From: a virus | DNA: 64,000 nt | Direction: 5' to 3' (one strand) | Virus record (IMG/VR): IMGVR_UViG_2786546475_000019 | Coordinates: 974-64,973 of that record | Part shown: positions 1-63,412 of the stretch, piece by piece | Position numbering within the stretch: the first letter of the stretch is position 1 | How the letters are laid out: each line of letters opens with the position of its first letter | Position numbers and translations under genes: made by a program | Notes under the pieces: model-generated | What the model saw: the letters and a program-made list of their open reading frames with translations, nothing else | Told to the model about the DNA's origin: nothing | The model's database searches: none

Positions 1-2
1 AA

Positions 3-87
3 GGACCATGGACCAAGGACAAAATGATAAATCTGGAACTGGACCCCGGACCCGGACAGGCCGACCAAGGACCGTGGACCGTGGACC
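3..87 (+). repeat. array of seven same-orientation GGACC pentamers, including GGACCGT x3 at 69-89
   Basis: GGACC starts at 3,10,41,48,69,76,83; non-coding window edge. Confidence 0.8.
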
Positions 88-131
88 ATGTTGACAGCAC
101 CTAACATGTTCGCCATCTTTGGTCGGCCTGT

Positions 132-188
132 CCGCCCCAGCAAAAAGCCGGTTGATGTTTTGCCGCCCCAGGTGAAGGCCGGTTGTTG
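132..188 (+). repeat. two imperfect ~26-nt direct repeats (CCGCCCCAG...GCCGGTTG), period 31 nt
   Basis: CCGCCCCAG at 132 and 163; GCCGGTTG follows each. Confidence 0.6.
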
Positions 189-214
189 GGAGGTCGATCC
201 AGGTTATCATGTGG

Positions 215-262
215 GTGTTCAATTTTGCAACACCGACAAAAAAGTGTTGCAAAATTGAACAC
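215..262. repeat. perfect 19-bp inverted repeat GTGTTCAATTTTGCAACAC / GTGTTGCAAAATTGAACAC with 10-nt spacer
   Basis: arms 215-233 and 244-262 are exact reverse complements. Confidence 0.9.
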
Positions 263-357
263 CCCCCTGAAAGTGGGGTGTGCGGTATCGCACACCCCCT
301 GAAAGTGGGGTGTGCGATACCGCACGTGCGGAACCGCACAGTGAGCGGTATCGCTCA
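260..357. repeat. ~32-nt tandem duplication containing a perfect 18-bp inverted repeat (281-298 / 307-324, 8-nt loop), plus palindromes GTGCGG-AA-CCGCAC and TGAGCG-GTAT-CGCTCA
   Basis: TGCGGTATCGCACACCCC versus GGGGTGTGCGATACCGCA; GCGGTATCGC or its complement at 282, 314 and 345 (spacing 32 and 31). Confidence 0.9.
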
Positions 358-685
358 GCTCAACTGCCCTATATTAGATACTTCGGTGTAGTCAATTTGA
401 CTACATGATAGATCGGCGATTTTGCCTAAATCCAAGGCATCGCTGCCCACGGTATAGGCACAAGGATATTAGACGGTAAAAACCGACATATTGTGAGCTT
501 TCCAGATCGCTTTCCCGAAAACTAAGTGTCCAGTAACTATTTCAAAGTATTTTCACGCGGGGAAAACCGATGAATGGGAGCCGCAGACAGCGTGCCTAAA
601 ATTCAGGCAGGTATAATTGGGGCGTTCCAAGCGAACACGGGCAAGCCAAGCCAAATTCGGCACGCTTGTCAAGTTCCACGGGACT

Positions 686-792
686 CGCTACACTGTATGC
701 TGTAGCGTTTGATCTTTGACAATTTGGTTTCTAGTTGGCGGTTAAACTCGCTACGCGGTCCAAATATCGCGGACCACGTAGCGAGTTTAACC
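686..792. repeat. 7-bp hairpin (686-707) and a long inverted repeat with 22-nt arms and one mismatch (740-761 / 771-792); both share the ACTCGCTAC/GTAGCGAGT core
   Basis: GGTTAAACTCGCTACGCGGTCC versus GGACCACGTAGCGAGTTTAACC. Confidence 0.85.
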
Positions 793-793
793 G

Positions 794-826
794 GGCTTGA
801 ACGGTGACAGGTTCAAGCCTATTTCA
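794..826 (+). terminator. hairpin GGCTTGAAC-N8-GTTCAAGCC followed by TATTTCATT; weak terminator-like element just upstream of the 856 gene
   Basis: perfect 9-bp stem at 794-802 / 811-819; the T tract is poor. Confidence 0.3.
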
Positions 827-855
827 TTAAATCCTTATTTGGAAGGAATACCACT

Positions 856-2263: not shown

Positions 2264-2273
2264 TGCCCTTGGA

Positions 2274-2333
2274 ATATCAACTAGCTGCACGCAATATCAA
2301 ATAGCTGCACGCAATATCAACTAGCTGCACGCA
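2274..2333 (+). repeat. three tandem 20-bp iterons AATATCAA(C/A)TAGCTGCACGC
   Basis: units at 2274, 2294 and 2314; one substitution in the middle unit. Confidence 0.9.
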
Positions 2334-2430
2334 AACCCGGTAGGGGTTTATCACAAGTCGTTGCACCCAGGAACAATACCGGGGTCCGTCGCCCTTAACG
2401 CGACGACACAAGCATGATATTTTGTGCCAC

Positions 2431-2612: not shown

Positions 2613-2676
2613 TTCTGAATTTTTTCAGAATTAGGGGCAATCCGTCCTGCCCTCATTCGTATCTATAGGGAAGTCC
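2613..2676 (+). promoter_or_regulatory. promoter-like module A1: palindrome TTCTGAA-N4-TTCAGAA, then TTTTCA-N6-GGGGCAATCC-N11-CATTCGTATCTATAGGGAAGTCC
   Basis: one of three copies with identical geometry (others at 59266-59322 + and 58653-58708 -); 12 nt before ATG 2688. Confidence 0.6.
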
Positions 2677-33403: not shown

Positions 33404-33612
33404 GCCAAAGCCAACTTGAAGCTTACGCCAGACAACGTAAGTTTAGGCCCAAGATGGAAAATGTTCAAATTTGTGAACAGTGCGACCACTTAATACGTGA
33501 TCGCTACTGTTCCAAATTTGGCAAGTGTCCTGACGCTCAAAAAGATTTCTTTAAAGCCCTTGAACGAAGTAAATGTCCTTTAGAGAAATTTCCGTCGCAG
33601 CTCAGCGAATAG
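33400..33612 (+). CDS. small Cys-rich protein, last gene of the rightward arm
   Basis: 70 aa, CEQCDH...C...C; 3' end overlaps the convergent gene by 33 nt. Confidence 0.45.
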   Translation: MSQSQLEAYARQRKFRPKMENVQICEQCDHLIRDRYCSKFGKCPDAQKDFFKALERSKCPLEKFPSQLSE

Positions 33613-33996
33613 AATTCTAACTTGCTTAGGAGTTAACTCTAACAAACGCCCGATTTCCGAATACGTATAGTATTGAAGTCGTAAACTTACAGCCCATCGC
33701 TCCTCGACAGTTAGCCTATCTAGGTCAAACTGATCGAGGAATTCTTCTGCACTTCTTGATAATTCTTCAATATCGCCTAACGCTTCGGTATCATTGTTTG
33801 TTTGCATTTTCTTTCGACGACGGTAAGCGTCAATACCTCTCGACCGTAGTAAGGTTCTTAAGTGTGAGATGAATTTCTTTTCCTCAACTAGCTCATGATA
33901 ATTCTCCCACGCTTGTAAAAATTCCAAAGATAGCGAGCAGTCAAATTTAGTTTCAAACTCTCGCAACAAGTAAACATAATCGTCGATCCTTCGCAT
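33580..33996 (-). CDS. sigma-70 region-4-like HTH protein (minimal ECF/LuxR-type)
   Basis: LTVEERWAVSLRLQYYTYSEIGRLLELTPKQVRILFAELRRKF matches the region 4.2 pattern. Confidence 0.5.
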   Translation of the reverse strand: MRRIDDYVYLLREFETKFDCSLSLEFLQAWENYHELVEEKKFISHLRTLLRSRGIDAYRRRKKMQTNNDTEALGDIEELSRSAEEFLDQFDLDRLTVEERWAVSLRLQYYTYSEIGRLLELTPKQVRILFAELRRKFL

Positions 33997-37585: not shown

Positions 37586-38236
37586 TTAAACCATATTCAA
37601 AGTAATTGGAGGTTTGTCGCTTTTTAAAAGTTTAGCTAGCTTTTCTAACGCTCGCTTTTCAAGTTGACGAACTCTTTCTCGCGAGATATTAAGAGTTTCC
37701 CCAATAGTCTTAAGAGGAATCCCTTGGGCTCGTAGCCTCAAAACTAAAGCATCTCGACTATTTAACTCAAGAAAAGCTTTTTCTAGAGCAATAAGCTCCT
37801 CTTGCCATTCTATCAAATCCCTATCAAGACATTCTAAAGGTGTAACAGGGTTATTAAATAGCCCGTGTAAGGTTTGAAACATTGGAGCACGAGCTATAGC
37901 AGCTTTAGCTCTGTCAAGATGAGCTGGATTTGGAGATACTTTAATTAACTCCACCTTGGTTTTCATGTAAGTTATCATTCGTTGTTTCACCCACGGAGTG
38001 GCGTAAGTTGAAAACTGATAACCTTTACTAGGGTCAAATTTTTTGACCGCCTGACATAACCCACTCATTCCTTCTTGAATTAAATCGTCTAAATCAAGCT
38101 TAGAATTTTTCTTGGCAAAAGACACCGCTATCTTGATAACCAATCCTTGATTATCTAACACTAACCGATTGAGTGCTTCATCAGCTTCCTTTCTAGCAGA
38201 ATGATATTTTTGTAATAACTCGTCATTAGTATCCAC
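37586..38236 (-). CDS. sigma-70 family RNA polymerase sigma factor (group-3-like)
   Basis: region 2 DDLIQEGMSGLCQAVKKFDPSKGYQFSTYATPWVKQRM; region 4.2 TIGETLNISRERVRQLEKRALEKL. Confidence 0.85.
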   Translation of the reverse strand: MDTNDELLQKYHSARKEADEALNRLVLDNQGLVIKIAVSFAKKNSKLDLDDLIQEGMSGLCQAVKKFDPSKGYQFSTYATPWVKQRMITYMKTKVELIKVSPNPAHLDRAKAAIARAPMFQTLHGLFNNPVTPLECLDRDLIEWQEELIALEKAFLELNSRDALVLRLRAQGIPLKTIGETLNISRERVRQLEKRALEKLAKLLKSDKPPITLNMV

Positions 38237-43911: not shown

Positions 43912-44387
43912 TCCGGCTCAGTAGTTCCAACGTATCCCATACCTTTGCCAAGAATCTTGTCTTGATAATAATACCATCGGTATGAGAAGATACAGTCTTC
44001 GAAATCTCCGGCCAAGCCTTTATAATATCCAGGCATAGCCAAGTTTGGAGGAGTAAGAGGGCCACGTCGTATGTAACACGGAGATTGATAAAGATACCCA
44101 ACCCGGTTCCATACTTCATGTAAAGCTAACCCTCTCTTATCCCGCTCCTTCAACAACGCTATCATATGCTTCAAAGTCCATTGATAATTTGAATCAGTGG
44201 AACGAACCCATTGAGTTGACGGGTGATTTGCGAAGCATGGTTTACACATTCCTTGACGCCAAAGTCCAACTTCGTCATGTGCCGTTGATAACATTTGGGC
44301 ACACTCAATCGGCATTTTTGTTAAATGGTCCGTGGCCATGTAGCTAGCTGCAAGGACCGGGTCCATATCAAGGAAGAAAACATTCAC
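43881..44387 (-). CDS. conserved phage protein of unknown function
   Basis: N-terminal FFLDMDPVLAASYMATDHLTKMPIECAQMLSTAH recalls a widespread phage/virus family I cannot name with confidence. Confidence 0.5.
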   Translation of the reverse strand: MNVFFLDMDPVLAASYMATDHLTKMPIECAQMLSTAHDEVGLWRQGMCKPCFANHPSTQWVRSTDSNYQWTLKHMIALLKERDKRGLALHEVWNRVGYLYQSPCYIRRGPLTPPNLAMPGYYKGLAGDFEDCIFSYRWYYYQDKILGKGMGYVGTTEPEWLLHLKGKL

Positions 44388-44770
44388 GCCCCAAGTCCAA
44401 GCGATTTGATGGAAGCCCTTTTGAGTGCTGTCAAGGTAACAACACGTCCAAGTAGCTTGGAAAGTGTTTCTTCGAAGTTATCAAGTTGCTCCGATAATTT
44501 GTATTCGAAGCCGTTCAAAAGTATCACTTCTTCCAAGTTCTCAGAAACCCAAGAATTTAAGTCTTGGTCTTTCACAAGATACTTACCGTCTTGAATCGTT
44601 AACTTGCCATTGATAGTTGGGCCTTTCAATTCGTCTCGCCAAATTTTCACGTTTTCAGGAGCGGTTATGTTAATTGAAGCAGCTCCTGATCCTGCATCAA
44701 AGATTGTTACCCGAACGTCGTTCCCAATTGTAAATGATTGCGACGCCCAGCGTTTAAGAGTTAACGCCAT
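44384..44770 (-). CDS. hypothetical protein
   Basis: 128-aa ORF. Confidence 0.5.
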   Translation of the reverse strand: MALTLKRWASQSFTIGNDVRVTIFDAGSGAASINITAPENVKIWRDELKGPTINGKLTIQDGKYLVKDQDLNSWVSENLEEVILLNGFEYKLSEQLDNFEETLSKLLGRVVTLTALKRASIKSLGLGA

Positions 44771-50998: not shown

Positions 50999-51283
50999 TT
51001 AACAAGCTTTCCATTCAGCAATAAGTTTAGCAGCTTCGGGTGAGACTTTCACCCACTGTTTCACTGAAATGTCCTCATGGGTTTCAACAGCTGCCGTGAT
51101 ACGTGTGTTGGTCTTCGGACCATTAGCCGCTAAGCCAAAGAGTCCACCGCACTCAGAACTCCAGTAAAGGACCATTCGAGCGTTTCGCAATTTGATAGGC
51201 TTTCCAGCTTCGGGGTCTTTGTCCGCCATACCGATTATAACGGCTCGTCCGTTTTCCCCGCAACAAACTAGATACATCGACAT
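50999..51283 (-). CDS. hypothetical protein
   Basis: 94-aa ORF. Confidence 0.5.
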   Translation of the reverse strand: MSMYLVCCGENGRAVIIGMADKDPEAGKPIKLRNARMVLYWSSECGGLFGLAANGPKTNTRITAAVETHEDISVKQWVKVSPEAAKLIAEWKAC

Positions 51284-51284
51284 T

Positions 51285-51629
51285 TCAGTCTCCTCTTATC
51301 AATTGATAAATTTCTTTGTAAGTATGTACTGGCATATTATACTTGTCCGCTATATCCTGCCAGTTCTCTTCCCACCAGCTAAAAGAATGACACTGACCCC
51401 CAACTTTCAACACTCCAAAGTCTTGGTTGACTTCTACTTTGCGGCCGTGTAAAATTCCGAGTGTTATCAGTTTGCCGTAGCCGTAGCCGTAGCCGTAGCC
51501 GTAGCCGTCGCCGTCGCCGTAGCCGTCGCCGTAGCCGTAGCCGTAGCCGTAGCCGTCGCCGTAGCCGTAGCCGGTCCCGTAGCCGGTCCCGTAGCCGGTC
51601 CCGTAGCCGTCGCCGTGGTTACTTAACAT
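51285..51629 (-). CDS. protein with an N-terminal Gly-Tyr(-Asp/Thr) repeat region
   Basis: GDGYGTGYGTGYGTGYGYGDGYGYGYGYGDGYGDGDGYGYGYGYGYG followed by a ~60-aa non-repetitive domain. Confidence 0.55.
   Translation of the reverse strand: MLSNHGDGYGTGYGTGYGTGYGYGDGYGYGYGYGDGYGDGDGYGYGYGYGYGKLITLGILHGRKVEVNQDFGVLKVGGQCHSFSWWEENWQDIADKYNMPVHTYKEIYQLIRGD
51474..51616. repeat. hexanucleotide microsatellite (GCCGTA/GCCGTC/GCCGGTCCCGTA variants) encoding the GY repeats
   Basis: about 143 nt of near-perfect 6-nt periodicity. Confidence 0.9.
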
Positions 51630-54113: not shown

Positions 54114-54168
54114 ATTAAATCCAGATTGTCAAAGATCAAAATTATCATTTGTGTCCCGCCACTGGCGG

Positions 54169-54284
54169 AAATGATATGATAGCTTACAGACCTACGGTCA
54201 ATCTATTCTATACTTAATATCGGCAATTGGGAAGTAAGAAAATAGATTATTTTTGAAAATAATCAAAACTTTATCATATCATTT
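54169..54284. promoter_or_regulatory. operator pair AAATGATATGATA (54169-54181) / TATCATATCATTT (54272-54284) bracketing the palindrome GATTATTTT-TG-AAAATAATC (54245-54264)
   Basis: exact reverse-complement 13-mers; the identical pair occurs at 59227/59347. Confidence 0.7.
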
Positions 54285-54285
54285 T

Positions 54286-54627
54286 TTACACTGTTTCCTT
54301 CTCAATGATAATCCCATTGATTTCGAATTGGTTCGTGACCATATGCCAATGCATATCATTATACAGGAACCGATAGCAAGTTCTCCGATACCTGAACTCG
54401 TGACTAGGCCCATGGGCCGTGTACTCGGGTGTAGGCCATTTATCAATGTACCCTGTTAGAGACACGGACCTTTCATCTGGAAAAAAGAATTCAGGCTCTT
54501 GGACCTTGATCAATTCATCGTTGGACAAGTTACGGAGCCAAAGCCTATCTTCATCAAGATGATAATTTGCCTGCCACTCAAACCAAGCTTCAAACTCAGT
54601 CATGAAACAGTATGGGTTTCTGTTCAT
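54286..54627 (-). CDS. hypothetical protein
   Basis: start moved to ATG 54627 (GGGAG RBS, 1 nt after the methylase stop). Confidence 0.5.
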   Translation of the reverse strand: MNRNPYCFMTEFEAWFEWQANYHLDEDRLWLRNLSNDELIKVQEPEFFFPDERSVSLTGYIDKWPTPEYTAHGPSHEFRYRRTCYRFLYNDMHWHMVTNQFEINGIIIEKETV

Positions 54628-55396: not shown

Positions 55397-55581
55397 CCTA
55401 GTATCTCCAAGAGAACATTTAATTGGTCAGCACACGTCCGATACCCTTGTCGCTCGGCTTCGCGACGGTTTTCAAACTCCTGACCTTCTGGAGACCCATC
55501 AACTATTTCAGGTCGAGCCCCTTTCTCTCGCCACTTCTCAATCAACGCTTCTAAAACTTCTCGCTTGATACTTTTAGTCAT
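55393..55581 (-). CDS. small hypothetical protein
   Basis: start moved to ATG 55581 (GGGAGGAAAG RBS, ATGA overlap). Confidence 0.45.
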   Translation of the reverse strand: MTKSIKREVLEALIEKWREKGARPEIVDGSPEGQEFENRREAERQGYRTCADQLNVLLEILG

Positions 55582-55976
55582 ACGACTTTCCTCCCGTGTG
55601 TTAATGTAATTGTTTCGCCAGTTTGGGTAGTCTCTGTCCACGTCTTAGACCACGGACCTCGAATTGATAGCATCCACCCTTTGCCCTCGACCTTATGGTT
55701 CAGCTCGTGAGGTGTGTACTTTACTCGGAACTTTTTATACTCCCGTGGCCAGCCGTAAATACAGTCAAAGTCGTCCGGTTTCCGAACAAACTCCGTGGCC
55801 CATCCCATTAGGAGCATGGTCCATGCATTGAACGCATGGGTGTGGAAGTTCCGTTCAGCAGCACCGCCCTTCACTCGAAGCAGAACGATTGAGAACAAAC
55901 ATTTGATTTCAATGATAAAGAACCCTGTTACGTTGGACTTTGGTCCACCATCTTTACGCCATGATAATAACCTCAT
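55578..55976 (-). CDS. hypothetical protein
   Basis: 132-aa ORF. Confidence 0.5.
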   Translation of the reverse strand: MRLLSWRKDGGPKSNVTGFFIIEIKCLFSIVLLRVKGGAAERNFHTHAFNAWTMLLMGWATEFVRKPDDFDCIYGWPREYKKFRVKYTPHELNHKVEGKGWMLSIRGPWSKTWTETTQTGETITLTHGRKVV

Positions 55977-55979
55977 AGT

Positions 55980-58586
55980 TTAAGTTGCCCTTTCTCCCTT
56001 AATCGTTTCCCTTTTAACACCGTCTGGAGTTTCAACAAAACGAAACCCGTTGTCTTTCGGAGCTTCATACGAGAAGCGAACATTGTAGATACATGTCTTT
56101 TGCATCTCGTCAATAGCTATCAAATACATTTCCGCTAGGTTCTGTTCGAACTTCTTACGATTTGCTCGCCCCCCGTCGTCCATGTAGTTCTTATACAGAA
56201 GTTGAAGCTCCACTTTTGATCCAGGCTGTTCTTGGAGCACGGACCGTGCAAAGAGTTCAACGTCGGTTCGGTTCAAGTCCGCAGCTTGCTCTTTATCAAC
56301 CGTATCCACAACAGGAACATTCAAACGCCCCTGAGTTGGCGGTATTTGATACGCTAACAAGGCATACAGAAACGCGGGAGCTTGAGCTTCCAGTTGTTCC
56401 AAAAGAAGTTTCTTTGGAATAACTTTATCTGGCTTCTTGGGTACATTGATAACCGTGATTCGGGTGTCTCCGGGAAGTATCGGACAGAACTCACGATTGT
56501 TCGCGGTGTGAATCCAATGCGACGTATTAGGTATCATGTAAGCGGGCTTGCCTTTTGTGTTGACTGAGATTACTTTGGACGTAACATAGTCTTTAACTTT
56601 TTGATAAACAGTGGAGTCCGAGTTCAAGTTAATCTCCTCAAGAACGCAAAGCACCGCCCCAGCAAGTTCACTGTTGAACGAGCTGACTAACGCGTTCTCC
56701 GCTCGAACGACACCGGGACTAAACAACAATGATAATGCTTCATGCAAAATCGACTTCCCGGTGTCTTGCTCCGTGGAATACAAAAACAGAAACGGCAAAG
56801 GTTCAAACGGTTGTTGTATCAATGACGCGACCCACGCAAACAGATAGTCGTGTCCTTTGCAAATACCGTTCTCCGTGAACCAATTATCCTTACGAACGTA
56901 TTGATCTAGAGAGTGTCCGATATGGTCCAGAATCTTCATCCAAAGATCAAAGTTTCCTTCTTCTGGAGTGTGTCGCAGTTGAGCAGCTCCCCGATTCCAT
57001 AAACGATTACCCGGATATTCAGACTCAAAGGGTCGTGAAACAATGTTCCAGGGCTTCATGATAGCTTCACCCTGCATCTGCTGAATCTCTTTAGTGTTCA
57101 TTCCTTGGCTTTTGAGACCGAGCGTCAGGTTGGCGATCGGTTCTTCGATCCAACCGTTATCATGCGTCTCAATAGCCCAACCGGCGTCCACGCTACCCAT
57201 AATCATGTGACGAATCTGCGTATTCGTGTCCACGTCATACGGGCTACCAGTACGAGACTCTTTTATCACTTTCAACCAACGTGTTCCTTTTGCGATCCAA
57301 CCTTCAATGCCGCCTGGGTCGCCTTTGATTTTCGGAATCTCAATTTTAAGCTTGTTTTCCTTTAGCTGAGTGACAGTTGCTTGACGAGCTATCAATACTT
57401 CGTCAATGGCTTGCATTTCATGTTGCTGGAAAAGCTTAGTCAATTTATGAGCAGGAAGCACCATTCCTTTTTTATCATCTTCTAACGCTCCTGAATCTTT
57501 CACCAAGGTCCAAAGCGGTGGAACATAATTCAAATACGTGCGAGTCCATCCGTTCTTCGTGGTCCACGATTCATGTTCCTTGGCTTCGTTGCCATATCGG
57601 TACACGGCCCATGCTCCGTGTGGAAGCGGATACGCGAAGCAGTTCTGTTTGTGGAGATCAGTTCCGTCACTGATAGTCTGGAAATCGCCTTTAAACCCGA
57701 GTTCTTTGGAAGCTTGCTCCAATAGTTTAGTGTGCGTGATAAACATCTTTCCTTCCGCGTTCCAGTAACCAAACGCGGAGTTGTTATTCATCCACTCAAG
57801 CAAACGCTCATGTTCTTCTTCAAGCGTCACGGACTGTTTGTGCTTGATAATTTCTTCCATACGGTCATCAGCATAAGAGTGTTTCTTCTTACCGCTCACG
57901 ACGCCAATATGATCTCGCCATCCCAGCGGCTCTTTGATATGGGCCTCAGCTTCCTTAATAATTTGAAAGCCGTTCTCTCCCGTTTTCCGTGACCATACCC
58001 ACATATTACAACCGAAAACATCAACTGCAAGGTCAAAGTCGAAACCAGTCTCAAGACATAGTTGACTCAGAACGCCGCGAGCAAGAGCAGCGTGTTCTGC
58101 CCGACTTGTCGTAGTGATAAGGTCTTCAAAGAAAACATATAAGTGGTAGCCAGCTCCACTTTTAGATCGTTGTACTCGCACCCAAGGTACGTTACACGCT
58201 CGTTGTTGAATATCAAGTAGATCAGTCTGCGTTAGCTTGTGCTTGTGCCGAGCTGAGTGGCCCACGATACCGTCAAAGTCGAAAGCAACATATCGCGAGA
58301 TGCATTGCCCAAAGTCCCACCCCGATAAACCAACCATTGAGGCGTGATCTTCCAGGCTGAACTTGATATTTCCTTCATCGTATTTGCCATCAATTCGAAA
58401 ATTCTTCCAGACTTGAACACCGTCAGTCCACTCCCGGTAGGTCCGACCTTTGTATTCCTTATCAACAGGCTCGCCGCCATCAGCGGCTACGTTTACTTGA
58501 ACTTCCATTGTAGGCGAGTATAACGCCGCCATGTGGGGTTCTGCGTTATCACGCAAGAATCGTTCTAAAGCTTCACTTTTACGCAT
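55980..58586 (-). CDS. AEP primase-polymerase fused to an SF3 (D5/P4-type) helicase
   Basis: VAFDFDGIV and SKSGAGYHLYVFF (AEP motifs); Walker A STEQDTGKS in the C-terminal half; start set to ATG 58586 (GAGG RBS), track start 58592 is TTG. Confidence 0.8.
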   Translation of the reverse strand: MRKSEALERFLRDNAEPHMAALYSPTMEVQVNVAADGGEPVDKEYKGRTYREWTDGVQVWKNFRIDGKYDEGNIKFSLEDHASMVGLSGWDFGQCISRYVAFDFDGIVGHSARHKHKLTQTDLLDIQQRACNVPWVRVQRSKSGAGYHLYVFFEDLITTTSRAEHAALARGVLSQLCLETGFDFDLAVDVFGCNMWVWSRKTGENGFQIIKEAEAHIKEPLGWRDHIGVVSGKKKHSYADDRMEEIIKHKQSVTLEEEHERLLEWMNNNSAFGYWNAEGKMFITHTKLLEQASKELGFKGDFQTISDGTDLHKQNCFAYPLPHGAWAVYRYGNEAKEHESWTTKNGWTRTYLNYVPPLWTLVKDSGALEDDKKGMVLPAHKLTKLFQQHEMQAIDEVLIARQATVTQLKENKLKIEIPKIKGDPGGIEGWIAKGTRWLKVIKESRTGSPYDVDTNTQIRHMIMGSVDAGWAIETHDNGWIEEPIANLTLGLKSQGMNTKEIQQMQGEAIMKPWNIVSRPFESEYPGNRLWNRGAAQLRHTPEEGNFDLWMKILDHIGHSLDQYVRKDNWFTENGICKGHDYLFAWVASLIQQPFEPLPFLFLYSTEQDTGKSILHEALSLLFSPGVVRAENALVSSFNSELAGAVLCVLEEINLNSDSTVYQKVKDYVTSKVISVNTKGKPAYMIPNTSHWIHTANNREFCPILPGDTRITVINVPKKPDKVIPKKLLLEQLEAQAPAFLYALLAYQIPPTQGRLNVPVVDTVDKEQAADLNRTDVELFARSVLQEQPGSKVELQLLYKNYMDDGGRANRKKFEQNLAEMYLIAIDEMQKTCIYNVRFSYEAPKDNGFRFVETPDGVKRETIKGERAT

Positions 58587-58603
58587 TAACAAACCTCATT
58601 AAC

Positions 58604-58618
58604 AAATTGATATCATTT
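58604..58618. promoter_or_regulatory. near-palindromic operator-like site AAATTGATATCATTT in the primase leader
   Basis: related to the AAATGATA / TATCATTT half-sites. Confidence 0.45.
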
Positions 58619-58652
58619 TCGATAACAGATTCGAGAAAGCCCGAAACAACCA

Positions 58653-58708
58653 GACTTCACCCTATAGCTACGAGTGGCGGGATATCGGATTGCCCCACAA
58701 AATGAAAA
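58653..58708 (-). promoter_or_regulatory. promoter-like module A3
   Basis: - strand TTTTCA-TTTTGT-GGGGCAATCC-GATATCCCGCC-ACTCGTAGCTATAGGGTGAAGTC, about 70 nt upstream of ATG 58586. Confidence 0.6.
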
Positions 58709-58793
58709 TAAATCGAGTTAATGGAAATTGATACGAAACTTTAATGACGTTTCCAGTGCAGCGTTATCATTATTCTCTCACGTACGCGAAGCC

Positions 58794-58932
58794 ATTAACG
58801 TTTTTGATACTCAAACCTTTAATTTAAGCTTCTACTTCTTATGGGTACGAGGTGAAAGTAAAATATAGTAGTAGTGTAAATATTATAAGGATTTCAGCCG
58901 CTCAGGCGAGCTTCTGATAAGAAAACGTTAAT
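58794..58932. repeat. 11-bp inverted repeat ATTAACGTTTT / AAAACGTTAAT flanking a very AT-rich stretch
   Basis: arms at 58794-58804 and 58922-58932; related TTTTACGTTAAAT at 58941. Confidence 0.7.
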
Positions 58933-59017
58933 GAGCCAAATTTTACGTTAAATTGGTATGTTTCGACGGGAATTGATACCGTCTCACTGCTCTCCTCCCG
59001 AACCTTGCATCTTGGCT

Positions 59018-59058
59018 CACGCTACACGTATCACGCTACACGTATCACGCTACACGTA
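59018..59058 (+). repeat. tandem 14-mer CACGCTACACGTAT x2.9
   Basis: units at 59018, 59032 and 59046; followed by ACGT/CGCGTG-rich repeats up to 59225. Confidence 0.9.
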
Positions 59059-59142
59059 CGCGTAGCACGTGGGTACGTGCCAGGGCCAAAGACCTTGAGT
59101 TCTCTTTTAAGTCTCGGAACTGACGTGTAAATTAGTAAGCGG

Positions 59143-59169
59143 TTATCATTTTGCGTGAGCAAATGATAA
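59143..59169. promoter_or_regulatory. inverted repeat TTATCATTT-N9-AAATGATAA
   Basis: perfect 9-bp arms. Confidence 0.6.
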
Positions 59170-59226
59170 TTCTCGCGTGCTCCCGCGTGTCCCGCACGTG
59201 CGACTATTTAAATACGCGACGTGCGT

Positions 59227-59359
59227 AAATGATATGATACATGGTTTTCAAAATACTTGAAAATATTTTCAAAATACGGGGCAATCCTGCCCGGTTTTAT
59301 TCGTAGCTATAGGGGGAAAGTAGACTGTTTTACTTTCCAAAACGACTATCATATCATTT
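59227..59359. promoter_or_regulatory. operator pair AAATGATATGATA (59227-59239) / TATCATATCATTT (59347-59359) bracketing module A2
   Basis: exact 13-mers identical to the 54169/54272 pair. Confidence 0.7.
59257..59322 (+). promoter_or_regulatory. promoter-like module A2: palindrome TTGAAAATATTTTCAA, then TTTTCA-N6-GGGGCAATCC-N11-TATTCGTAGCTATAGGGGGAAAGT
   Basis: same 29-nt spacing from GGGG to CTATAGGG as A1 and A3. Confidence 0.6.
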
Positions 59360-59374
59360 GTGGAGAAGTCCAAC

Positions 59375-60403
59375 ATGGCAGAAGAAACTCAAGCTACCGA
59401 AACTATCATTTCAGAAGGATTGACTCAAGAGCAGTTCGAATCCGTGGGTAGCGACATTCAGGCGATTTCTATCAATGAGATCACCGTCCCTGAAGTTAAG
59501 CTTCGTGGCGTGAACACCGAAGGGGAAGAATACTTGGAACTCAAGGATTCTATCAAATCGCAAGGACTGTTGCAGAACATTACTGTACGTCCCGTCGAAA
59601 TCGCTGGCAAGCAAGGCTACGAACTTATCACTGGGCTCCAGCGATATACTGCTTGCAAGGAACTCGGACATGAGACTATCGACGCTCGTGTGAAAGAAAT
59701 GTCCGAGCAAGAAGCTTGGTTGTGGATGATCCACGAAAACACTCAACGTGTTACGCAAAAAGCGTCAGATATCACCAAGCTCTTGAAGCGTCTGATCGCC
59801 AAAGATCCAACGATGTCTATTCCACGACTCGCGAAGCTTTTGTCGAAGTCCGTGCCCCAAGTACAGAACTATCTGGCACTTGATAAACTGACCGACGAGG
59901 CAAAGGAATTGGTCGATGATGAAACCATCGGTTTGACCAACGCAGTTGCTCTCGCCAAGCTCCCACCTGAGGAGCAGGAAGACTTGCTTGCTGACGCGTC
60001 AACAATGACCGTTGCTGAATTTGTTCCACTTGTAAACGAACGAAAAGAAAAGGTTGATCAAGCCAATCGTGAAGCTCGTGAACAGGAAAAGAACACGTTT
60101 TCTCCGAAACCAAAAGCTCGCAAGAAAGACGATCTCGTCACCGAGCTTGGAATTATCATGGGCACGGAGACTGGCACTTCGCTTCTTATGGAGTGCTTGA
60201 ACGGTCAGGATGTTGATACTTCCAACCAGAATGTCAAGGCAGTTATCACTCAGACAATGGAGTGGGTCCTGAACCTTGATCCAGCGTCCGTCGACGCTCA
60301 ACGAGCGAAATGGGAAGACGCCAAAAAGAAGCGGGAAGAACGAGAAAAAGCGAAAGCTGCCGCTCGTGCCGAACGTGAAAAGGCGAAAGCCCTGGAAATC
60401 TAA
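59375..60403 (+). CDS. ParB-like N-terminal domain protein
   Basis: LKDSIKSQGLLQNITVRPV...YELITGLQRYTACKELGHETIDARV; start set to ATG 59375 (GGAG RBS), track start 59360 is GTG; Lys/Glu/Ala-rich C-terminus. Confidence 0.75.
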   Translation: MAEETQATETIISEGLTQEQFESVGSDIQAISINEITVPEVKLRGVNTEGEEYLELKDSIKSQGLLQNITVRPVEIAGKQGYELITGLQRYTACKELGHETIDARVKEMSEQEAWLWMIHENTQRVTQKASDITKLLKRLIAKDPTMSIPRLAKLLSKSVPQVQNYLALDKLTDEAKELVDDETIGLTNAVALAKLPPEEQEDLLADASTMTVAEFVPLVNERKEKVDQANREAREQEKNTFSPKPKARKKDDLVTELGIIMGTETGTSLLMECLNGQDVDTSNQNVKAVITQTMEWVLNLDPASVDAQRAKWEDAKKKREEREKAKAAARAEREKAKALEI

Positions 60404-60412
60404 ATTGATAGT

Positions 60413-60474
60413 TTCAATTTAGTTTCAATTTAGATTCCATCTGATACTTCAATTTTAAACTTCAACTTCAATTT
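60413..60474 (+). repeat. four exact TTCAATTT octamers plus one TTCAAC in 62 nt
   Basis: octamers at 60413, 60424, 60448 and 60467; intergenic, downstream of the ParB-like gene. Confidence 0.8.
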
Positions 60475-60487
60475 AAAAGGACATTTT

Positions 60488-61156
60488 ATGTCTCAACTTG
60501 CACAGCTCAAGAAAAAAGTTTCCAACAAACCTGATCCTCAAGAACGTAACTTGATAACATCCGGCTCTAACATGCCGTACGTCAAGTTGTGTGGCTCAAG
60601 CACCACGCTTGTGAAGCAGGGTATCATTCCAATGGGGCATCACTCCCTAACGGAAGGTCAGAATCACATTGACCTTGGAAACGAGTTTCTTGCTGCGTTT
60701 ATTTCAAATCGTCCAAAAGCCGTTCACTACGGCGAAGATTTGACTATCAGTTATGATCCGACGAAACCTGAGTTTCAGGAGATTATGAAGAAAGCTGATT
60801 TGGGTGGACAAGCCGCTCGTGGGTATTCCTACGGTTACGAGTTTCTTCTATACTTGCCAGAGCAAAACAAAATGGCAACGTATCATTTTGGAAATCCCAC
60901 GGCTCGCCAGTCAACTGATGCGATCCTTGCATTGTTTGACGACCACAACTTCTTCATGGCGACGGTCAGCTCCACACTGATCGAGCGGAAAGGCAATTCA
61001 TGGCACGGTCCTGTAGTCAAATACTACGAGAACCCTGTTGAAATGCCAAAGTTTGATGCTGAAACTGTTCAAGCTTCCATTGAGAAGTTTGATAATCCTG
61101 TCCCATTGATCGGTACCGAAGTGGCTACTGACGAAGTGGCAAACGATCTTGAGTAA
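60488..61156 (+). CDS. hypothetical protein
   Basis: 222-aa ORF, AAAGGA RBS. Confidence 0.55.
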   Translation: MSQLAQLKKKVSNKPDPQERNLITSGSNMPYVKLCGSSTTLVKQGIIPMGHHSLTEGQNHIDLGNEFLAAFISNRPKAVHYGEDLTISYDPTKPEFQEIMKKADLGGQAARGYSYGYEFLLYLPEQNKMATYHFGNPTARQSTDAILALFDDHNFFMATVSSTLIERKGNSWHGPVVKYYENPVEMPKFDAETVQASIEKFDNPVPLIGTEVATDEVANDLE

Positions 61157-61442: not shown

Positions 61443-63412
61443 GAAATTCACACAAAGGGATAAACGTCATCCGCCCCAGCTTAATGAGTAAGCTGGCAGA
61501 AGGTCCAGTACGTCTAAAGCTCACGTACCAAGGCCGACGTTATCCTATGACGTTCAACATCAACAGCGATGCCACTGAAATATCAATTAAGTTCCCCTTC
61601 TCAAGAAAAGGGCTTGAGCTGGTCAAGACTCGCTTCGGGGGACGTAAATGGGACAAAACCAATGAGCGTTGGACCATGCCGCTCACAATGCGTAACTTGT
61701 TCCTAATGGACCTACTCTCAGGAGGCAAACCTCATTTAAATTGGCGTCGTGAGGAAGACTACACCGACTTTATCAAAGAGTTCTGGGCTCAACGAGATAA
61801 ACCTTTCGAGTGTGAATTGTTTCAACATCAGATTGAAATGATAAATCTTGCTCTCAACTCTCGACACGTAATCCTGGCCGCAGATATGGGCCTTGGCAAA
61901 ACGTTAACGGCAATCGTTGTTATGGAGATTCTAGGAATTCCCAAGTGTACTTGGGTGGCTCCTAATGCTCCGTTAGCTCAAGCAAAGAACGAGTTTCGAG
62001 ATTGGCGAACACTGACTCAGGCTCGGTGGCTCACGTATCGTGGAGCCGTAAAATGGCAAAACGAATACACTGGTAAAGCTCCGAAAGCTTTTATCATTGA
62101 CGAATCTGCCTACATTAAAAACAAATCACAACGAACAGATGCTTGTTTGTACATTGCCGACTGCGTACGAGAGGAGCATGGCCTGGACTCATTAATCCTG
62201 CTCCTGTCGGGTAAACCAGCTCCTAAGTCCCCACCTGATTGGTTTAACCAAGTGGAAGCAATTTGTCCCGGAGCTATCAACGAGAATTCAAAATATACTC
62301 TTGAACGTCGCTTAGGTCTTTGGAAACAATCTGAATACGGCGAGTTCCAAGAACTTGTTACTTGGTATGATAACGAAGATAAGTGTGCCCATTGCGGGGA
62401 GATTAAACTTCACCCTAACCATCAAGAGCTTGACTTCGAAGAATTTATTCGTCACGGCTCTACTGGCGAACTAGCCACGTATGAGCGTCACGAATTCCAA
62501 CCGTCGGTAAACGAAGTTATCAAGTTCGGTCAACGGCTTAATGGCTTTTGTGGTGTGTGGCAAAAAGAAGATTGCACTGACTTGCCGCCAAAGCAATTCC
62601 ACGTGGAACAACTCGTTGTTACTCCTGAAATGTTGAACTTAGCTAAGTCTTACATGGCGAAAGCAACATCAGGTTCCGAGTCTTTGATATTTTTACGAAC
62701 ATTATCTGATGGTTTTGTTTACCAGAAGATACCAACCGATCAACTTGCTGTATGCCAAGGGTGTCATGGCGAAAAGCAAGTCGAAATGATAGACCCTGAC
62801 ACTAACGAAACGTTTTGGGCTGATTGTCACACGTGCCACGGTGAAGGATCAGTGCCGCTTATTGAACGAGTCTATCAAACGTACCCAACACCTAAGTTGG
62901 ATTACTTACACAAGTTACTTGAACTTCATAAGGAGACTGGACGATTTGTGACATTTGCAGCTTTCCAAGCATCAGTAGACATCATTACCAACTTTGCATT
63001 GCAAAAGAATTGGCAAGTGATACAAGCTGATGGGCGAGGCTGGATGTTCCACAAAGGTATTGATAACGTTGCTAAGATGAAGAAAGGGGAAATGCTAGAT
63101 TACTTCCAGAAAGGCCCGGACGACCGCGTATTATTCGTAGGTCAACCCGGAGCTGCTGGTAGTGGATTGACATTGCATCGCTCACCCGGAGTCTTCTTTT
63201 ACTCCAATGATAACGTACCGAATAACCGGTTTCAAGCTATTGATCGAGTTCATCGTATTGGTATGCGTGACGATGGTGGTCACGTCTACGATTGTTTGTG
63301 TTTACCGTCGGATAAACGTATTTTGTCCACGTTAAATAATTCAGAACGATTATCATCTATTACTCTTGACCAGTTGAAGAAGGATTATGAGCACTACCAC
63401 CCCACAAATTGA
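61415..63412 (+). CDS. SNF2-family helicase with an inserted DnaJ-type zinc finger
   Basis: ADMGLGKTLTAI (motif I), IIDESAYIKN (motif II), GAAGSGLTLH and QAIDRVHRIGM (motifs V/VI); CQGCHGEK...CHTCHGEG. Confidence 0.75.
   Translation: MDQARLHEIRNSHKGINVIRPSLMSKLAEGPVRLKLTYQGRRYPMTFNINSDATEISIKFPFSRKGLELVKTRFGGRKWDKTNERWTMPLTMRNLFLMDLLSGGKPHLNWRREEDYTDFIKEFWAQRDKPFECELFQHQIEMINLALNSRHVILAADMGLGKTLTAIVVMEILGIPKCTWVAPNAPLAQAKNEFRDWRTLTQARWLTYRGAVKWQNEYTGKAPKAFIIDESAYIKNKSQRTDACLYIADCVREEHGLDSLILLLSGKPAPKSPPDWFNQVEAICPGAINENSKYTLERRLGLWKQSEYGEFQELVTWYDNEDKCAHCGEIKLHPNHQELDFEEFIRHGSTGELATYERHEFQPSVNEVIKFGQRLNGFCGVWQKEDCTDLPPKQFHVEQLVVTPEMLNLAKSYMAKATSGSESLIFLRTLSDGFVYQKIPTDQLAVCQGCHGEKQVEMIDPDTNETFWADCHTCHGEGSVPLIERVYQTYPTPKLDYLHKLLELHKETGRFVTFAAFQASVDIITNFALQKNWQVIQADGRGWMFHKGIDNVAKMKKGEMLDYFQKGPDDRVLFVGQPGAAGSGLTLHRSPGVFFYSNDNVPNNRFQAIDRVHRIGMRDDGGHVYDCLCLPSDKRILSTLNNSERLSSITLDQLKKDYEHYHPTN

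What the first reader, a model, noticed from the sequence alone, without database searches (positions are those of the whole stretch)
58709..59226. AT-rich, repeat-laden core of the divergent region: candidate replication origin next to the primase-helicase
Several repeat elements lie between the two diverging promoter-like modules. GAAATTGATAC (58724) and GGAATTGATAC (58969) are direct repeats. ATTAACGTTTT (58794) and AAAACGTTAAT (58922) are an 11-bp inverted pair around a very AT-rich stretch. The tandem 14-mer CACGCTACACGTAT occurs x2.9 (59018-59058). CGCGTGCTCC / CGCGTGTCCC are 10-bp-phased repeats (59174-59193). An AT-rich unwinding region with iterons beside the initiator or primase gene is the classic origin layout. 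None of the track ORFs here is credible.
Basis: partly seen in the sequence, partly recalled or inferred. Interest (0 to 1): 0.55.

Follow-up and report, generated by a model that had tools for sequence, protein, structure and literature searches.

The report
Repeat-rich spacer between divergent phage promoters
The flagged stretch is a non-coding, protein-binding-site-rich spacer inside the control region from which an uncultured 72-kb marine phage transcribes its replication genes in both directions; it may also hold the replication origin, but sequence evidence cannot show that, and another part of the genome looks at least as origin-like.

Summary
Every string is at the stated coordinates. 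Only part of it exceeds chance: the 14-mer TCACGCTACACGTA x3 does clearly, the 12-bp inverted pair has p~0.014, and the other two repeat pairs are chance-level. The region is not AT-rich overall (56.9% vs 55.1% for the window). Only 58794-58932 is moderately so (67.6%).

It lies in the 782-bp gap between a primase-helicase (-) and an HTH-ParB (+). This divergent, AT-poorer-than-claimed but always AT-enriched gap is conserved in about 60 distant relatives as two inverted promoter modules plus palindromic operators. Here the modules are 553 bp apart, against about 60-200 bp usually, so the core is lineage-specific extra DNA.

Several core elements recur at other promoters of the same genome: the AAATGATA operators, CATTAACGTTT and CGCACGTGCG. 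My best reading (~0.45) is a cis-regulatory hub for the back-to-back promoters. An origin function (~0.3) is compatible. The cumulative GC-skew minimum falls here, but so does the gene-strand switch. There are no DnaA boxes or GATC sites, and the repeats are not conserved. A second non-coding region, at the circular junction, has a more classic iteron-plus-AT-rich layout.

Ordinary kind, interesting family context.

The parts
55980..58586 (-). Primase-helicase gene (868 aa from the ATG at 58586; weak AEP-like N-terminal hit plus DUF5906/D5-type SF3 helicase). First gene of the leftward transcription unit.
   Evidence: Pfam DUF5906 E=1.3e-15 and a sub-threshold AEP-TOTE hit (E=0.0099, 15.9 bits, below Pfam's 27-bit cut-off); PHROG 'DNA primase'. 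Identical protein P0001 in public assemblies.
58593..59374 (.). Whole 782-bp non-coding gap between the divergent primase-helicase and ParB genes. This is the conserved bidirectional control region of the replication module.
   Evidence: No gene called in four assemblies. The synteny p222<-ParB | primase-> and a 270-790-bp gap, 5-15 GC points below its locus, are seen in about 60 relatives.
58604..58619 (.). 16-bp near-palindrome AAATTGATATCATTTT in the primase leader. Member of the AAATGATA/TATCATTT operator family.
   Evidence: (I12). AAATGATA occurs 5 times in the gap against 0.33 expected (Bonferroni p=0.018).
58660..58696 (-). Promoter-like module M1: GGGGCAATCC-N13-TCGTAGCTATAGGG, pointing at the primase gene.
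   Evidence: One of only three copies in the 72-kb genome. The others are at 59278-59314 (+) and 2634-2670 (+).
58724..58734 (+). GAAATTGATAC, with its partner GGAATTGATAC at 58969-58979.
   Evidence: Present as stated but not beyond chance as a pair. AATTGATA occurs 3 times in the gap; not significant after correction.
58793..58804 (+). Left arm of the 12-bp inverted pair: CATTAACGTTTT.
   Evidence: I8; p~0.014. CATTAACGTTT also occurs at 2587, upstream of module M3. CATTAAC occurs 4 times in the gap against 0.19 expected.
58805..58921 (.). Moderately AT-rich (65%) 117-bp block between the inverted boxes. It would be the unwinding element if this is an origin.
   Evidence: within the top 3% of 117-nt windows, but less AT-rich than 54167-54360 and 60386-60530.
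58922..58933 (+). Right arm of the inverted pair: AAAACGTTAATG.
59017..59058 (+). Exact tandem array TCACGCTACACGTA x3. It also reads as six CACG-phased heptads (CACGCTA/CACGTAT).
   Evidence: TRF score 84, 100% matches, and a period-7 row. Unique in the window. Far beyond shuffles.
59049..59080 (.). Two adjoining dyads. GCTACACGTACGCGTAGC is 16/18 palindromic and is formed by the last repeat unit plus an inverted half-unit. GCACGT-GGGT-ACGTGC follows it.
   Evidence: Read from the sequence. The words TACGCG, GCACGT/ACGTGC and CACGTG are enriched.
59143..59169 (.). Operator-type palindrome TTATCATTT-N9-AAATGATAA. It also scores as a sigma-70-like TTATCA-N16-GATAAT.
   Evidence: (I21).
59174..59226 (.). 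GC-rich block: CGCGTGCTCC/CGCGTGTCCC, the 10-bp palindrome CGCACGTGCG (59193-59202), ATTTAAAT, and ACGTGCG again at 59219.
   Evidence: The same CGCACGTGCG palindrome occurs only once more in the genome, at window 319-328, in the other large non-coding region.
59227..59239 (+). AAATGATATGATA, the upstream member of an inverted operator pair that brackets module M2. Its partner TATCATATCATTT is at 59347-59359, 120 bp away.
   Evidence: (I1). The identical 13-mer pair brackets the promoter region at 54169-54181 / 54272-54284.
59278..59314 (+). Promoter-like module M2: GGGGCAATCC-N13-TCGTAGCTATAGGG, pointing at parB.
59347..59359 (+). TATCATATCATTT operator in the parB leader, just upstream of the GGAG Shine-Dalgarno sequence.
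59375..60403 (+). ParB-family gene (342 aa; ParB_N plus HTH_ParB). First gene of the rightward replication unit.
   Evidence: Pfam and PHROGs. It aligns to Spo0J/ParB/Noc structures through the HTH, with the GERR box changed to GLQR.

Best explanation
The core is a lineage-specific, expanded cis-regulatory spacer inside the conserved bidirectional control region of the phage's replication module.

Two copies of the phage's main promoter module (M1 leftward, M2 rightward) fire outward. They drive two of the genome's three large transcription units.

The DNA between and around the modules is packed with binding sites for phage DNA-binding proteins:
- AAATGATA/TATCATTT operator palindromes, which also bracket other promoters of this genome.
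- CATTAACGTTT boxes, also found upstream of the third promoter module.
- A CGCACGTGCG dyad, also found in the other major non-coding region.
- A private array of ACGT-core half-sites: the 14-mer x3, ending in an 18-bp dyad.

Proteins bound at these sites set the timing and level of replication-gene expression by occlusion or looping. The prime suspect is the adjacent HTH-ParB acting like KorB. An unidentified repressor is also possible.

Shown: the anatomy, the statistics, the recurrence of the motifs at other promoters, and the conservation of the architecture in relatives.
Inferred: that the modules are promoters (possibly read by the phage's own sigma factor), which protein binds which site, and the repression mechanism.

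This reading does not exclude an origin function that overlaps it.
For: 1. The gap lies between two inverted copies of a 37-bp module that occurs only three times in the genome. Each copy sits 17-73 bp upstream of the first gene of a long co-oriented gene block. A phage sigma-70-family gene is present at 37586-38236.
2. In 37 of 54 distinct relatives the same gap carries an ATCAAATC palindrome near both gene starts (control sequence: 1 of 54). It also carries inverted TATA-containing modules. The window has the one-base variant TATCA-TATCA at the same positions.
3. The identical 13-mers AAATGATATGATA / TATCATATCATTT occur four times in 64 kb, as two inverted pairs. One pair brackets M2 and the other brackets the 54.2-kb promoter region. 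The core's 59143-59169 palindrome uses the same half-site.
4. CATTAACGTTT recurs upstream of M3, and CGCACGTGCG recurs at 319-328.
5. The modules are 553 bp apart here, against about 60-200 bp in most relatives. The core has no DNA or translated similarity to any relative. So the core is added DNA, not the conserved part.
6. ParB aligns with DNA-binding ParB/Noc proteins through the HTH. No ParA is encoded, which fits a regulatory rather than a partition role.
Against: - No binding, transcription-start or expression data exist.
- The 14-mer array, the strongest feature, has no second copy anywhere, so it is not explained by a shared-operator model.
- ParB recognition-helix type and operator type do not co-vary cleanly across relatives, so the binder is unidentified.
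- A pure regulatory role does not obviously need 0.5 kb.
- Relatives repeatedly expand this gap with private repeat arrays (L080, L043, L023, L039, L040). That also fits a rapidly co-evolving initiator and origin.
Confidence: 0.45

Rival explanations
1. Replication origin. The SF3 primase-helicase, possibly through a variable C-terminal DNA-binding region, binds the inverted CATTAACGTTTT boxes and/or the ACGT half-site array. It melts the 117-bp AT-rich block between them and primes bidirectional synthesis. Outward transcription from M1 and M2 may help opening.
For: - It is adjacent to the primase-helicase gene.
- Inverted boxes flank a 65% AT block next to a direct-repeat array.
- The cumulative GC-skew minimum (plateau 58.5-63 kb, detrended minimum 59,055) lies on the reconstructed circular genome at this place.
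- The gap is long and AT-enriched in all relatives, and it is repeatedly expanded with lineage-specific repeats. One example is L080, with inverted TTACTGTTT groups around an A-rich centre.
- The primase's last ~65 residues are the non-conserved part (92% coverage).
Against: - The skew switch coincides with the gene-strand switch, so it does not discriminate.
- The AT block is only in the top 3% of windows, and three richer blocks exist.
- There is no DnaA box and no GATC site.
- Arrays are not conserved in relatives.
- The inverted box also sits upstream of the structural-gene promoter M3, which looks like a transcription-factor site.
- The junction region (genome 71.2-72.1 kb plus window 1-855) has a 71.5% AT block flanked by 28-30-mers and further arrays. 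That is a stronger origin look-alike.
Confidence: 0.3
2. Centromere-like (parS) loading region for the adjacent ParB. The 16-18-bp dyads with a CACGTG/ACGT core nucleate ParB. ParB then spreads to organise or segregate the genome, as in a plasmid-prophage lifestyle.
For: - The ParB gene is immediately adjacent, with a Spo0J/Noc-type HTH.
- There are dyads of parS-like length with a CACGTG centre.
- A second CGCACGTGCG site lies in the other non-coding region.
Against: - No ParA/Walker ATPase is encoded next to ParB or anywhere scanned.
- The conserved downstream partner p222 has no Walker motif and no family hit.
- The ParB arginine box GERR is GLQR, so canonical CTP-dependent clamping is doubtful.
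- No integrase or other sign of a plasmid-prophage lifestyle was found among the genes scanned.
Confidence: 0.1
3. The core is transcribed as a non-coding RNA, or as a long structured leader, from a promoter inside it. Candidates are the leftward TTTTCA-N18-TATCAT at 59263-59234 and the TTATCA-N16-GATAAT at 59143-59170.
For: - The minus-strand RNA fold has z=-3.2, with 0 of 100 shuffles folding as well.
- There are sigma-70-like matches inside the core and a terminator-like hairpin at 59081-59097.
Against: - No Rfam match even at E<=1.
- The plus strand gives z=-1.6.
- The fold signal is what inverted DNA repeats would give anyway.
- No relatives are close enough to test covariation.
Confidence: 0.07
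4. Largely functionless filler. This gap is a plasticity hot spot where DNA is inserted and decays, and the tandem array is a replication-slippage product.
For: - Relatives carry unrelated inserts at this position, some with ORFs (L041, L054, L067) and some without (L040, L043, L057, L071).
- The core has no similarity to anything.
Against: - Several core motifs are shared with other regulatory regions of the same genome.
- The array is exact and ends in a dyad.
- The gap is identical in all four assemblies. However, the whole 55-64-kb stretch is invariant too, so this last point carries little weight.
Confidence: 0.08

Closest known systems
RK2/RP4 KorB with its OB operators (a ParB-family global regulator; PMC11790492)
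   Same: A ParB_N plus HTH protein is encoded next to replication functions. Palindromic operators lie at several promoters of one replicon, at promoter-proximal and distal positions. The protein sits beside its own regulated promoter.
   Different: No KorA or IncC (ParA) partner was found. The GERR box is degenerate (GLQR). The operator sequence is unrelated to the OB site. Binding by this ParB is not shown, and covariation across relatives was inconclusive.
Origins next to SF3 primase-helicase genes: phage P4 alpha with ori/crr iterons, and SaPI/PICI pri-rep-ori (from my own knowledge; context also in PMC7581432 and PMC9371898)
   Same: The initiator-type primase-helicase gene lies directly beside a non-coding block with direct and inverted short repeats and an AT-richer stretch.
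   Different: The P4 and SaPI repeats are proven initiator sites, and in SaPIs they lie 3' of rep. Here the block is 5' of the gene, between promoters. The repeat unit has a 14-bp (7-bp) phase. The AT block is modest. No function has been mapped.
Heptad operator/centromere arrays of the inc18 plasmid pSM19035 omega protein (WATCACW repeats; from my own knowledge)
   Same: There are contiguous 7-bp-phased units (TATCACG / CTACACG) in direct orientation, ending in an inverted unit, upstream of partition and replication-control genes. A similar CACGTAT x10 array lies in a divergent gap of an Azotobacter plasmid.
   Different: No ribbon-helix-helix protein was detected in this phage. Only every second heptad resembles WATCACW. 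Binding is untested.
Herpes simplex virus oriL, and the phage T7 primary origin (origins embedded in promoter regions of replication genes; from my own knowledge)
   Same: Inverted sequence modules flank an AT-rich centre between divergently transcribed replication genes (oriL). An origin is coupled to phage-specific promoters (T7).
   Different: Here the symmetry is confined to the promoter modules and is not continuous through the centre. Transcription runs away from the AT block, not into it as in T7.

Membership tests
Iteron-type replication origin | Replication initiation maps to the element, or the element supports autonomous replication | not testable with these tools
   Needs marker-frequency sequencing, 2D gels or origin cloning.
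Iteron-type replication origin | Several phased direct repeats that bind the initiator | tested here: inconclusive
   An exact 14-mer x3 array is present and non-random. Binding is unknown. The 14/7-bp phase is atypical. Arrays are not conserved in relatives.
Iteron-type replication origin | A markedly AT-rich unwinding element beside the repeats | tested here: inconclusive
   58794-58932 is 67.6% AT against 55.1% background, within the top 3% of windows. The finding region as a whole is 56.9% AT. Richer blocks lie elsewhere.
Iteron-type replication origin | Strand-composition switch at the site, independent of gene orientation | tested here: inconclusive
   The cumulative GC-skew minimum plateau is at 58.5-63 kb on the 72,097-bp map, but gene orientation flips at the same place.
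Iteron-type replication origin | Host-factor sites often present (DnaA boxes, GATC clusters) | tested here: not met
   No TTATCCACA within 1 mismatch, and no GATC in 782 bp. These sites are not obligatory for phage origins.
ParABS centromere (parS) | A ParB with a DNA-binding domain encoded next to the site | tested here: met
   ParB_N plus HTH_ParB. Aligns to Spo0J/Noc through the HTH.
ParABS centromere (parS) | A partner ParA ATPase | tested here: not met
   No ParA/CbiA-type family in any scanned gene. p222 has no Walker motif.
ParABS centromere (parS) | An intact GERR arginine box for CTP-dependent clamping | tested here: not met
   GERRY aligns to GLQRY.
ParABS centromere (parS) | ~16-bp palindromic sites bound by ParB | tested here: inconclusive
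   16-18-bp dyads exist (58604-58619, 59049-59066, 59065-59080, 59193-59202). Binding is untested.
Bidirectional promoter/operator control region | Back-to-back promoter elements directly upstream of divergent operons | tested here: met
   M1 and M2 are inverted copies of a module found three times in the genome, each heading a long gene block. Transcription starts are not measured.
Bidirectional promoter/operator control region | Repeated operator sites shared with other regulated promoters | tested here: met
   Identical AAATGATATGATA pairs lie at 59227/59347 and at 54169/54272. The half-site is enriched in the gap.
Bidirectional promoter/operator control region | Architecture conserved in related genomes | tested here: met
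   ATCAAATC palindromes are present in 37 of 54 relatives' gaps, against 1 of 54 controls. Inverted TATA-containing modules are also present.

The most novel reading that the evidence does not exclude
The conserved ParB|primase gap may be the replication origin of this whole uncultured phage family. It would be of a promoter-embedded type. The SF3 primase-helicase would assemble head-to-head on inverted boxes that lie inside or beside two mirror-image promoters and flank an AT-rich centre. The HTH-ParB would bind operator palindromes at both edges and couple replication-gene expression to origin firing. In this phage the origin would have been enlarged by a private ACGT-heptad array that matches a diverged C-terminus of the initiator.
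Probability: 0.25. Interest if true: 0.5.

Novelty: new member of a known kind. Interest (0 to 1): 0.3.

Why it matters
If the core is only a control region, it is an ordinary phage regulatory hub. It is still useful as an entry point to the transcription programme of a very abundant uncultured phage family. That family has more than 500 primase homologs on 60-75-kb contigs, spans 34-60% GC, and has no cultured member.

If the core is the origin, the family would gain a defined cis element for building replicons and for reading replication activity from metagenome coverage. It would also be an example of an origin placed between mirror-image promoters and flanked by sites for a ParB-type regulator.

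Tried and rejected
- DNA similarity of the gap to 50,697 phage records: none.
- DNA similarity to plasmids: only a 72-nt heptad-array match in an Azotobacter plasmid.
- Rfam at gathering threshold and at E<=1, and tRNA/tmRNA search: nothing.
- Small ORFs in the core: none credible.
- tblastx and short-word blastn of the core against 80 related loci: nothing. So the core is not a decayed copy of the genes inserted at this site in relatives.
- Close relatives for footprinting: none. The next primase is 43% identical. Single-protein scans of viral contigs found nothing. The promoter-module pattern has no match in viral, metagenome or genome collections.
- Strain variation: the four assemblies are identical over 55-64 kb, so there is no constraint signal.
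- ParB recognition helix versus operator type across relatives: suggestive but not clean.
- ACGT enrichment across relatives' gaps: not significant, so the ACGT cluster is private to this lineage.
- The 12-mer ACACGTATCACG at 51095: it lies inside a coding gene and is taken as chance.
- A continuous large palindrome through the gap centre in relatives: rejected. The symmetry is confined to ~40-70-bp modules.

Full report
CONTEXT

The window is 64 kb of an uncultured marine phage. The primase-helicase protein is identical to one found on TARA Oceans contigs of 71.4-72.3 kb. NCBI files one of these under an 'Acidobacteria bacterium' MAG. One scaffold runs across the ends of the others. This let me rebuild a 72,097-bp circular map. 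The linear contigs break inside a 30-bp tandem array.

The phage has a tape-measure protein, a P22-type coat, a gpA-type terminase, DNA polymerase A, a ligase and thymidylate synthase. It also encodes a sigma-70-family protein and a CsrA homolog. No cultured phage is close. The best match is 29% identity over the helicase domain only.

The finding lies in the 782-bp gap between two genes. One is the primase-helicase (55980-58586, minus strand; DUF5906/D5-type helicase, with only a sub-threshold AEP-like hit at the N-terminus). The other is a ParB-family gene (59375-60403, plus strand; ParB_N plus HTH_ParB).

THE OBSERVATION

Every quoted string is at its stated coordinate. Their weight differs.

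- The tandem array is exact: TCACGCTACACGTA x3.0 at 59017-59058. It is unique in the window and far outside the shuffle range.
- The inverted pair is 12 nt exact. Only 1.4% of 1000 shuffles reach that length with non-overlapping arms.
- The GAAATTGATAC pair is what chance gives. Outside the array the longest direct repeat is 9 nt, against a shuffle mean of 8.4.
- The CGCGTG pair is weak on its own. It does sit in a real cluster of ACGT-core words: ACGTGC 5 times against 0.32 expected, TACACGT 4 times against 0.04, and ACGT 13 times against about 4.

'AT-rich' is overstated. The flagged region is 56.9% AT and the window 55.1%. The left half (58794-58932) is 67.6% AT. The right half, which holds the arrays, is GC-rich. 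Three other places in the window are more AT-rich.

There is no credible ORF, no Rfam family and no tRNA.

WHAT SURROUNDS THE CORE

A 37-bp module, GGGGCAATCC-N13-TCGTA[G/T]CTATAGGG, occurs exactly three times in the genome:
- 58660-58696, minus strand, facing the primase gene.
- 59278-59314, plus strand, facing parB.
- 2634-2670, plus strand, facing the structural genes.

Each copy heads one of the three long co-oriented gene blocks. The spacing GGCAAT-N16-CGTA resembles promoters read by ECF-type sigma factors. That resemblance is from my own knowledge. The phage does encode a sigma factor with regions 2 and 4, at 37586-38236. So the 'diverging promoter-like modules' are real, and the core is the 553 bp between them.

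A second motif family is AAATGATA/TATCATTT. It occurs five times in the gap against 0.33 expected. Its members are:
- A 16-bp palindrome in the primase leader (58604-58619).
- The palindrome TTATCATTT-N9-AAATGATAA inside the core (59143-59169).
- The pair AAATGATATGATA (59227) / TATCATATCATTT (59347), which brackets M2.

The identical 13-mer pair brackets another promoter region at 54169/54272. More copies crowd the junction region.

The inverted-pair box CATTAACGTTT recurs at 2587, upstream of the third module. The 10-bp palindrome CGCACGTGCG (59193) recurs only at 319-328.

So several core elements belong to site families shared with other regulatory regions of the same genome. The 14-mer array is the exception. 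It is private to the core.

RELATIVES

An alignment of 30 primase homologs (A1) retrieved 80 viral loci. Nearly all keep the order p222 <- ParB | primase ->.

The gap is 270-790 bp in most, with a median of about 430. It is 5-15 GC points below its locus, across hosts spanning 34-60% GC.

It has a mirror-image architecture:
- Near both gene starts there is an ATCAAATC-type palindrome. It is in 37 of 54 distinct gaps, against 1 of 54 control segments.
- Further in there are inverted 40-70-bp modules with TATA-type elements, up to 39 bp perfect.
- A GTAAGTC/TTACTGAC motif is present in 21 of 54 gaps and mostly faces outward.

The symmetry is confined to the modules and does not run through the centre.

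The window's operator (TATCA-TATCA) is a one-base variant of the family's (AATCA-AATCA) at the same positions.

The modules are usually about 60-200 bp apart, and here 553 bp. The core has no DNA or translated similarity to any relative. Tandem arrays are not a conserved feature. Several relatives do carry their own private arrays or long ORF-less expansions at this site: L080, L039, L023, L040, L043, L057 and L071.

ORIGIN TEST

On the circular map the cumulative GC skew peaks at 33.1 kb. It bottoms in a plateau from 58.5 to 63 kb. The raw minimum is at 61,602 and the detrended minimum at 59,055. But genes change strand at exactly those two places, so the test cannot separate replication from transcription.

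The gap has no DnaA box and no GATC site.

A rival locus exists. The ~2-kb mostly non-coding junction region (genome 71.2-72.1 kb plus window 1-855) contains:
- A 200-nt block of 71.5% AT, flanked by 28-30-mers sharing CCGCCCCAAG...CAGGTGAT.
- GACCATG x8.4.
- A 17-mer x4.4.
- Many AAATGATA sites.

The four assemblies are identical over 55-64 kb, so there is no constraint signal. No closer relatives could be found for footprinting.

INTERPRETATION

The best-supported reading (about 0.45) is a cis-regulatory hub. The core would be an expanded spacer in the family's conserved bidirectional control region, loaded with operator-type sites that control the two outward promoters.

The adjacent ParB is a plausible binder, in the manner of KorB. 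It aligns with Spo0J/Noc through the HTH. It has no ParA partner. Its GERR box is GLQR. However, recognition helix and operator type do not co-vary cleanly across relatives, so the assignment is inferred.

An origin function (about 0.3) is compatible and could overlap. In its favour:
- Inverted boxes around an AT-richer block, next to a half-site array.
- The position beside an SF3 primase-helicase whose C-terminal ~65 residues are the non-conserved part.
- Recurrent private repeat expansions of this gap in relatives.

A parS centromere (0.1), a non-coding RNA or leader (0.07; minus-strand fold z=-3.2) and functionless filler (0.08) are less likely.

VERDICT

The interpretation cannot be decided from sequence. 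The feature is an ordinary kind of element, a phage control region and possible origin, in an interesting and uncharacterised phage family.

Noticed in passing
window 2634-2670 (+), 58660-58696 (-), 59278-59314 (+): The only three copies in the 72-kb genome of GGGGCAATCC-N13-TCGTA[G/T]CTATAGGG each head one of three long co-oriented gene blocks. The geometry GGCAAT-N16-CGTA looks ECF-sigma-like. The CTATAGGG end resembles T7-type start sites. No phage RNA polymerase was detected.
   Followed up: partly
window 37586-38236 (-); also 33580-33996 (-): A phage-encoded sigma-70-family protein (216 aa; Sigma70_r2 E=5e-18, r4 E=1e-12). A second small protein has a weak region-4 hit. These are candidate readers of the three promoter modules.
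   Followed up: partly
window 54140-54290: This is the most AT-rich spot of the window (75% AT). It carries the same inverted operator pair AAATGATATGATA / TATCATATCATTT (54169, 54272; 103 bp apart) that brackets the parB promoter module (120 bp apart). That suggests a looping or clamping repressor acting at several promoters.
   Followed up: partly
L086 19800-21500 (= genome 71.2-72.1 kb) and window 1-855: A ~2-kb mostly non-coding region at the circular junction. It has a 30-mer tandem array (contigs break here), a 28-mer x2.1 with the same CCGCCCCAAG...CAGGTGAT core on either side of a 200-nt 71.5% AT block, GACCATG x8.4, a 17-mer x4.4 (GTGTGCGGAACCGCACA), a 32-mer x2 (window 263-325), and many AAATGATA sites. 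It is a candidate origin and/or packaging site.
   Followed up: partly
window 1-100, 2437-2575; gene 44384-44770 (-): Dense GGACC repeats (AAGGACC, ATGGACC, CGGACC) flank the 453-aa gene. The phage also encodes a CsrA homolog (E=1e-9). If transcribed, A(N)GGA-rich arrays could act as a CsrB-like sponge or as a CsrA target. This is pure speculation and was not tested.
   Followed up: no
window 2273-2334: A 20-mer, AATATCAACTAGCTGCACGC, x3.1 lies between the 453-aa gene and the third promoter module.
   Followed up: no
window 60404-60487: The ParB-p222 intergenic spacer is more than 72% AT. It holds TAGTTTCAATT x2.6 followed by more TTCAA(T/C) units at about 11-bp phase. This is another repeat-laden gap and a possible bent-DNA or binding site.
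   Followed up: no
window 59375-60403; 63387-64229 (runs past the window end; L001 4358-5200); 41021-41377 (-); 856-2217: The phage has several ParB-related proteins. One has an HTH (GERR changed to GLQR). A 280-aa one has ParB_N only. A 118-aa protein has a weak ParB_N hit. ParB proteins lacking a DNA-binding domain were recently shown to activate phage thymine dioxygenases (PMC13229309). A 132-aa protein next to the primase (55578-55976) hits a PHROG annotated 'cysteine dioxygenase'. No TET/JBP domain was detected.
   Followed up: partly
L005-L084, ParB|primase gaps: A family-wide operator: ATCAAATC palindromes (AAATCAAATCA-N-TGATTTGATTT) lie near both gene starts in 37 of 54 distinct relatives across 34-60% GC. 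A second motif, GTAAGTC/TTACTGAC, is in 21 of 54 and mostly faces outward.
   Followed up: partly
L043, gap positions 258-378, 790-838, 924-1217: One relative has a 1.6-kb ORF-less ParB|primase gap with GGGACCG x17 and x7 and a 49-mer x5.8. These are the same kind of GGACC array that in the window sits at the junction region instead.
   Followed up: no
window 51474-51616 and 2161-2205: There are in-frame hexamer repeats inside ORFs: GCCGTA x23.8 (in ORF 51285-51629, minus strand) and GAAGCG x7.5 (an EA-repeat tail of the 453-aa protein).
   Followed up: no
L089 2950-3140 (Azotobacter chroococcum plasmid pAcX50e): A long 7-bp-phased array (CACGTAT x~10, flanked by TCATG/TCACG heptads) lies in a divergent gap upstream of an HU-family gene. 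It is the only database sequence resembling the core's array.
   Followed up: partly
window 58586-58600 and 58928-58948: Two six-codon mini-ORFs share the context GTTAATGAG. ATGAGGTTTGTTAATGCGTAA overlaps the primase start codon. ATGAGCCAAATTTTACGTTAA begins inside the right inverted box. This may be coincidence.
   Followed up: no
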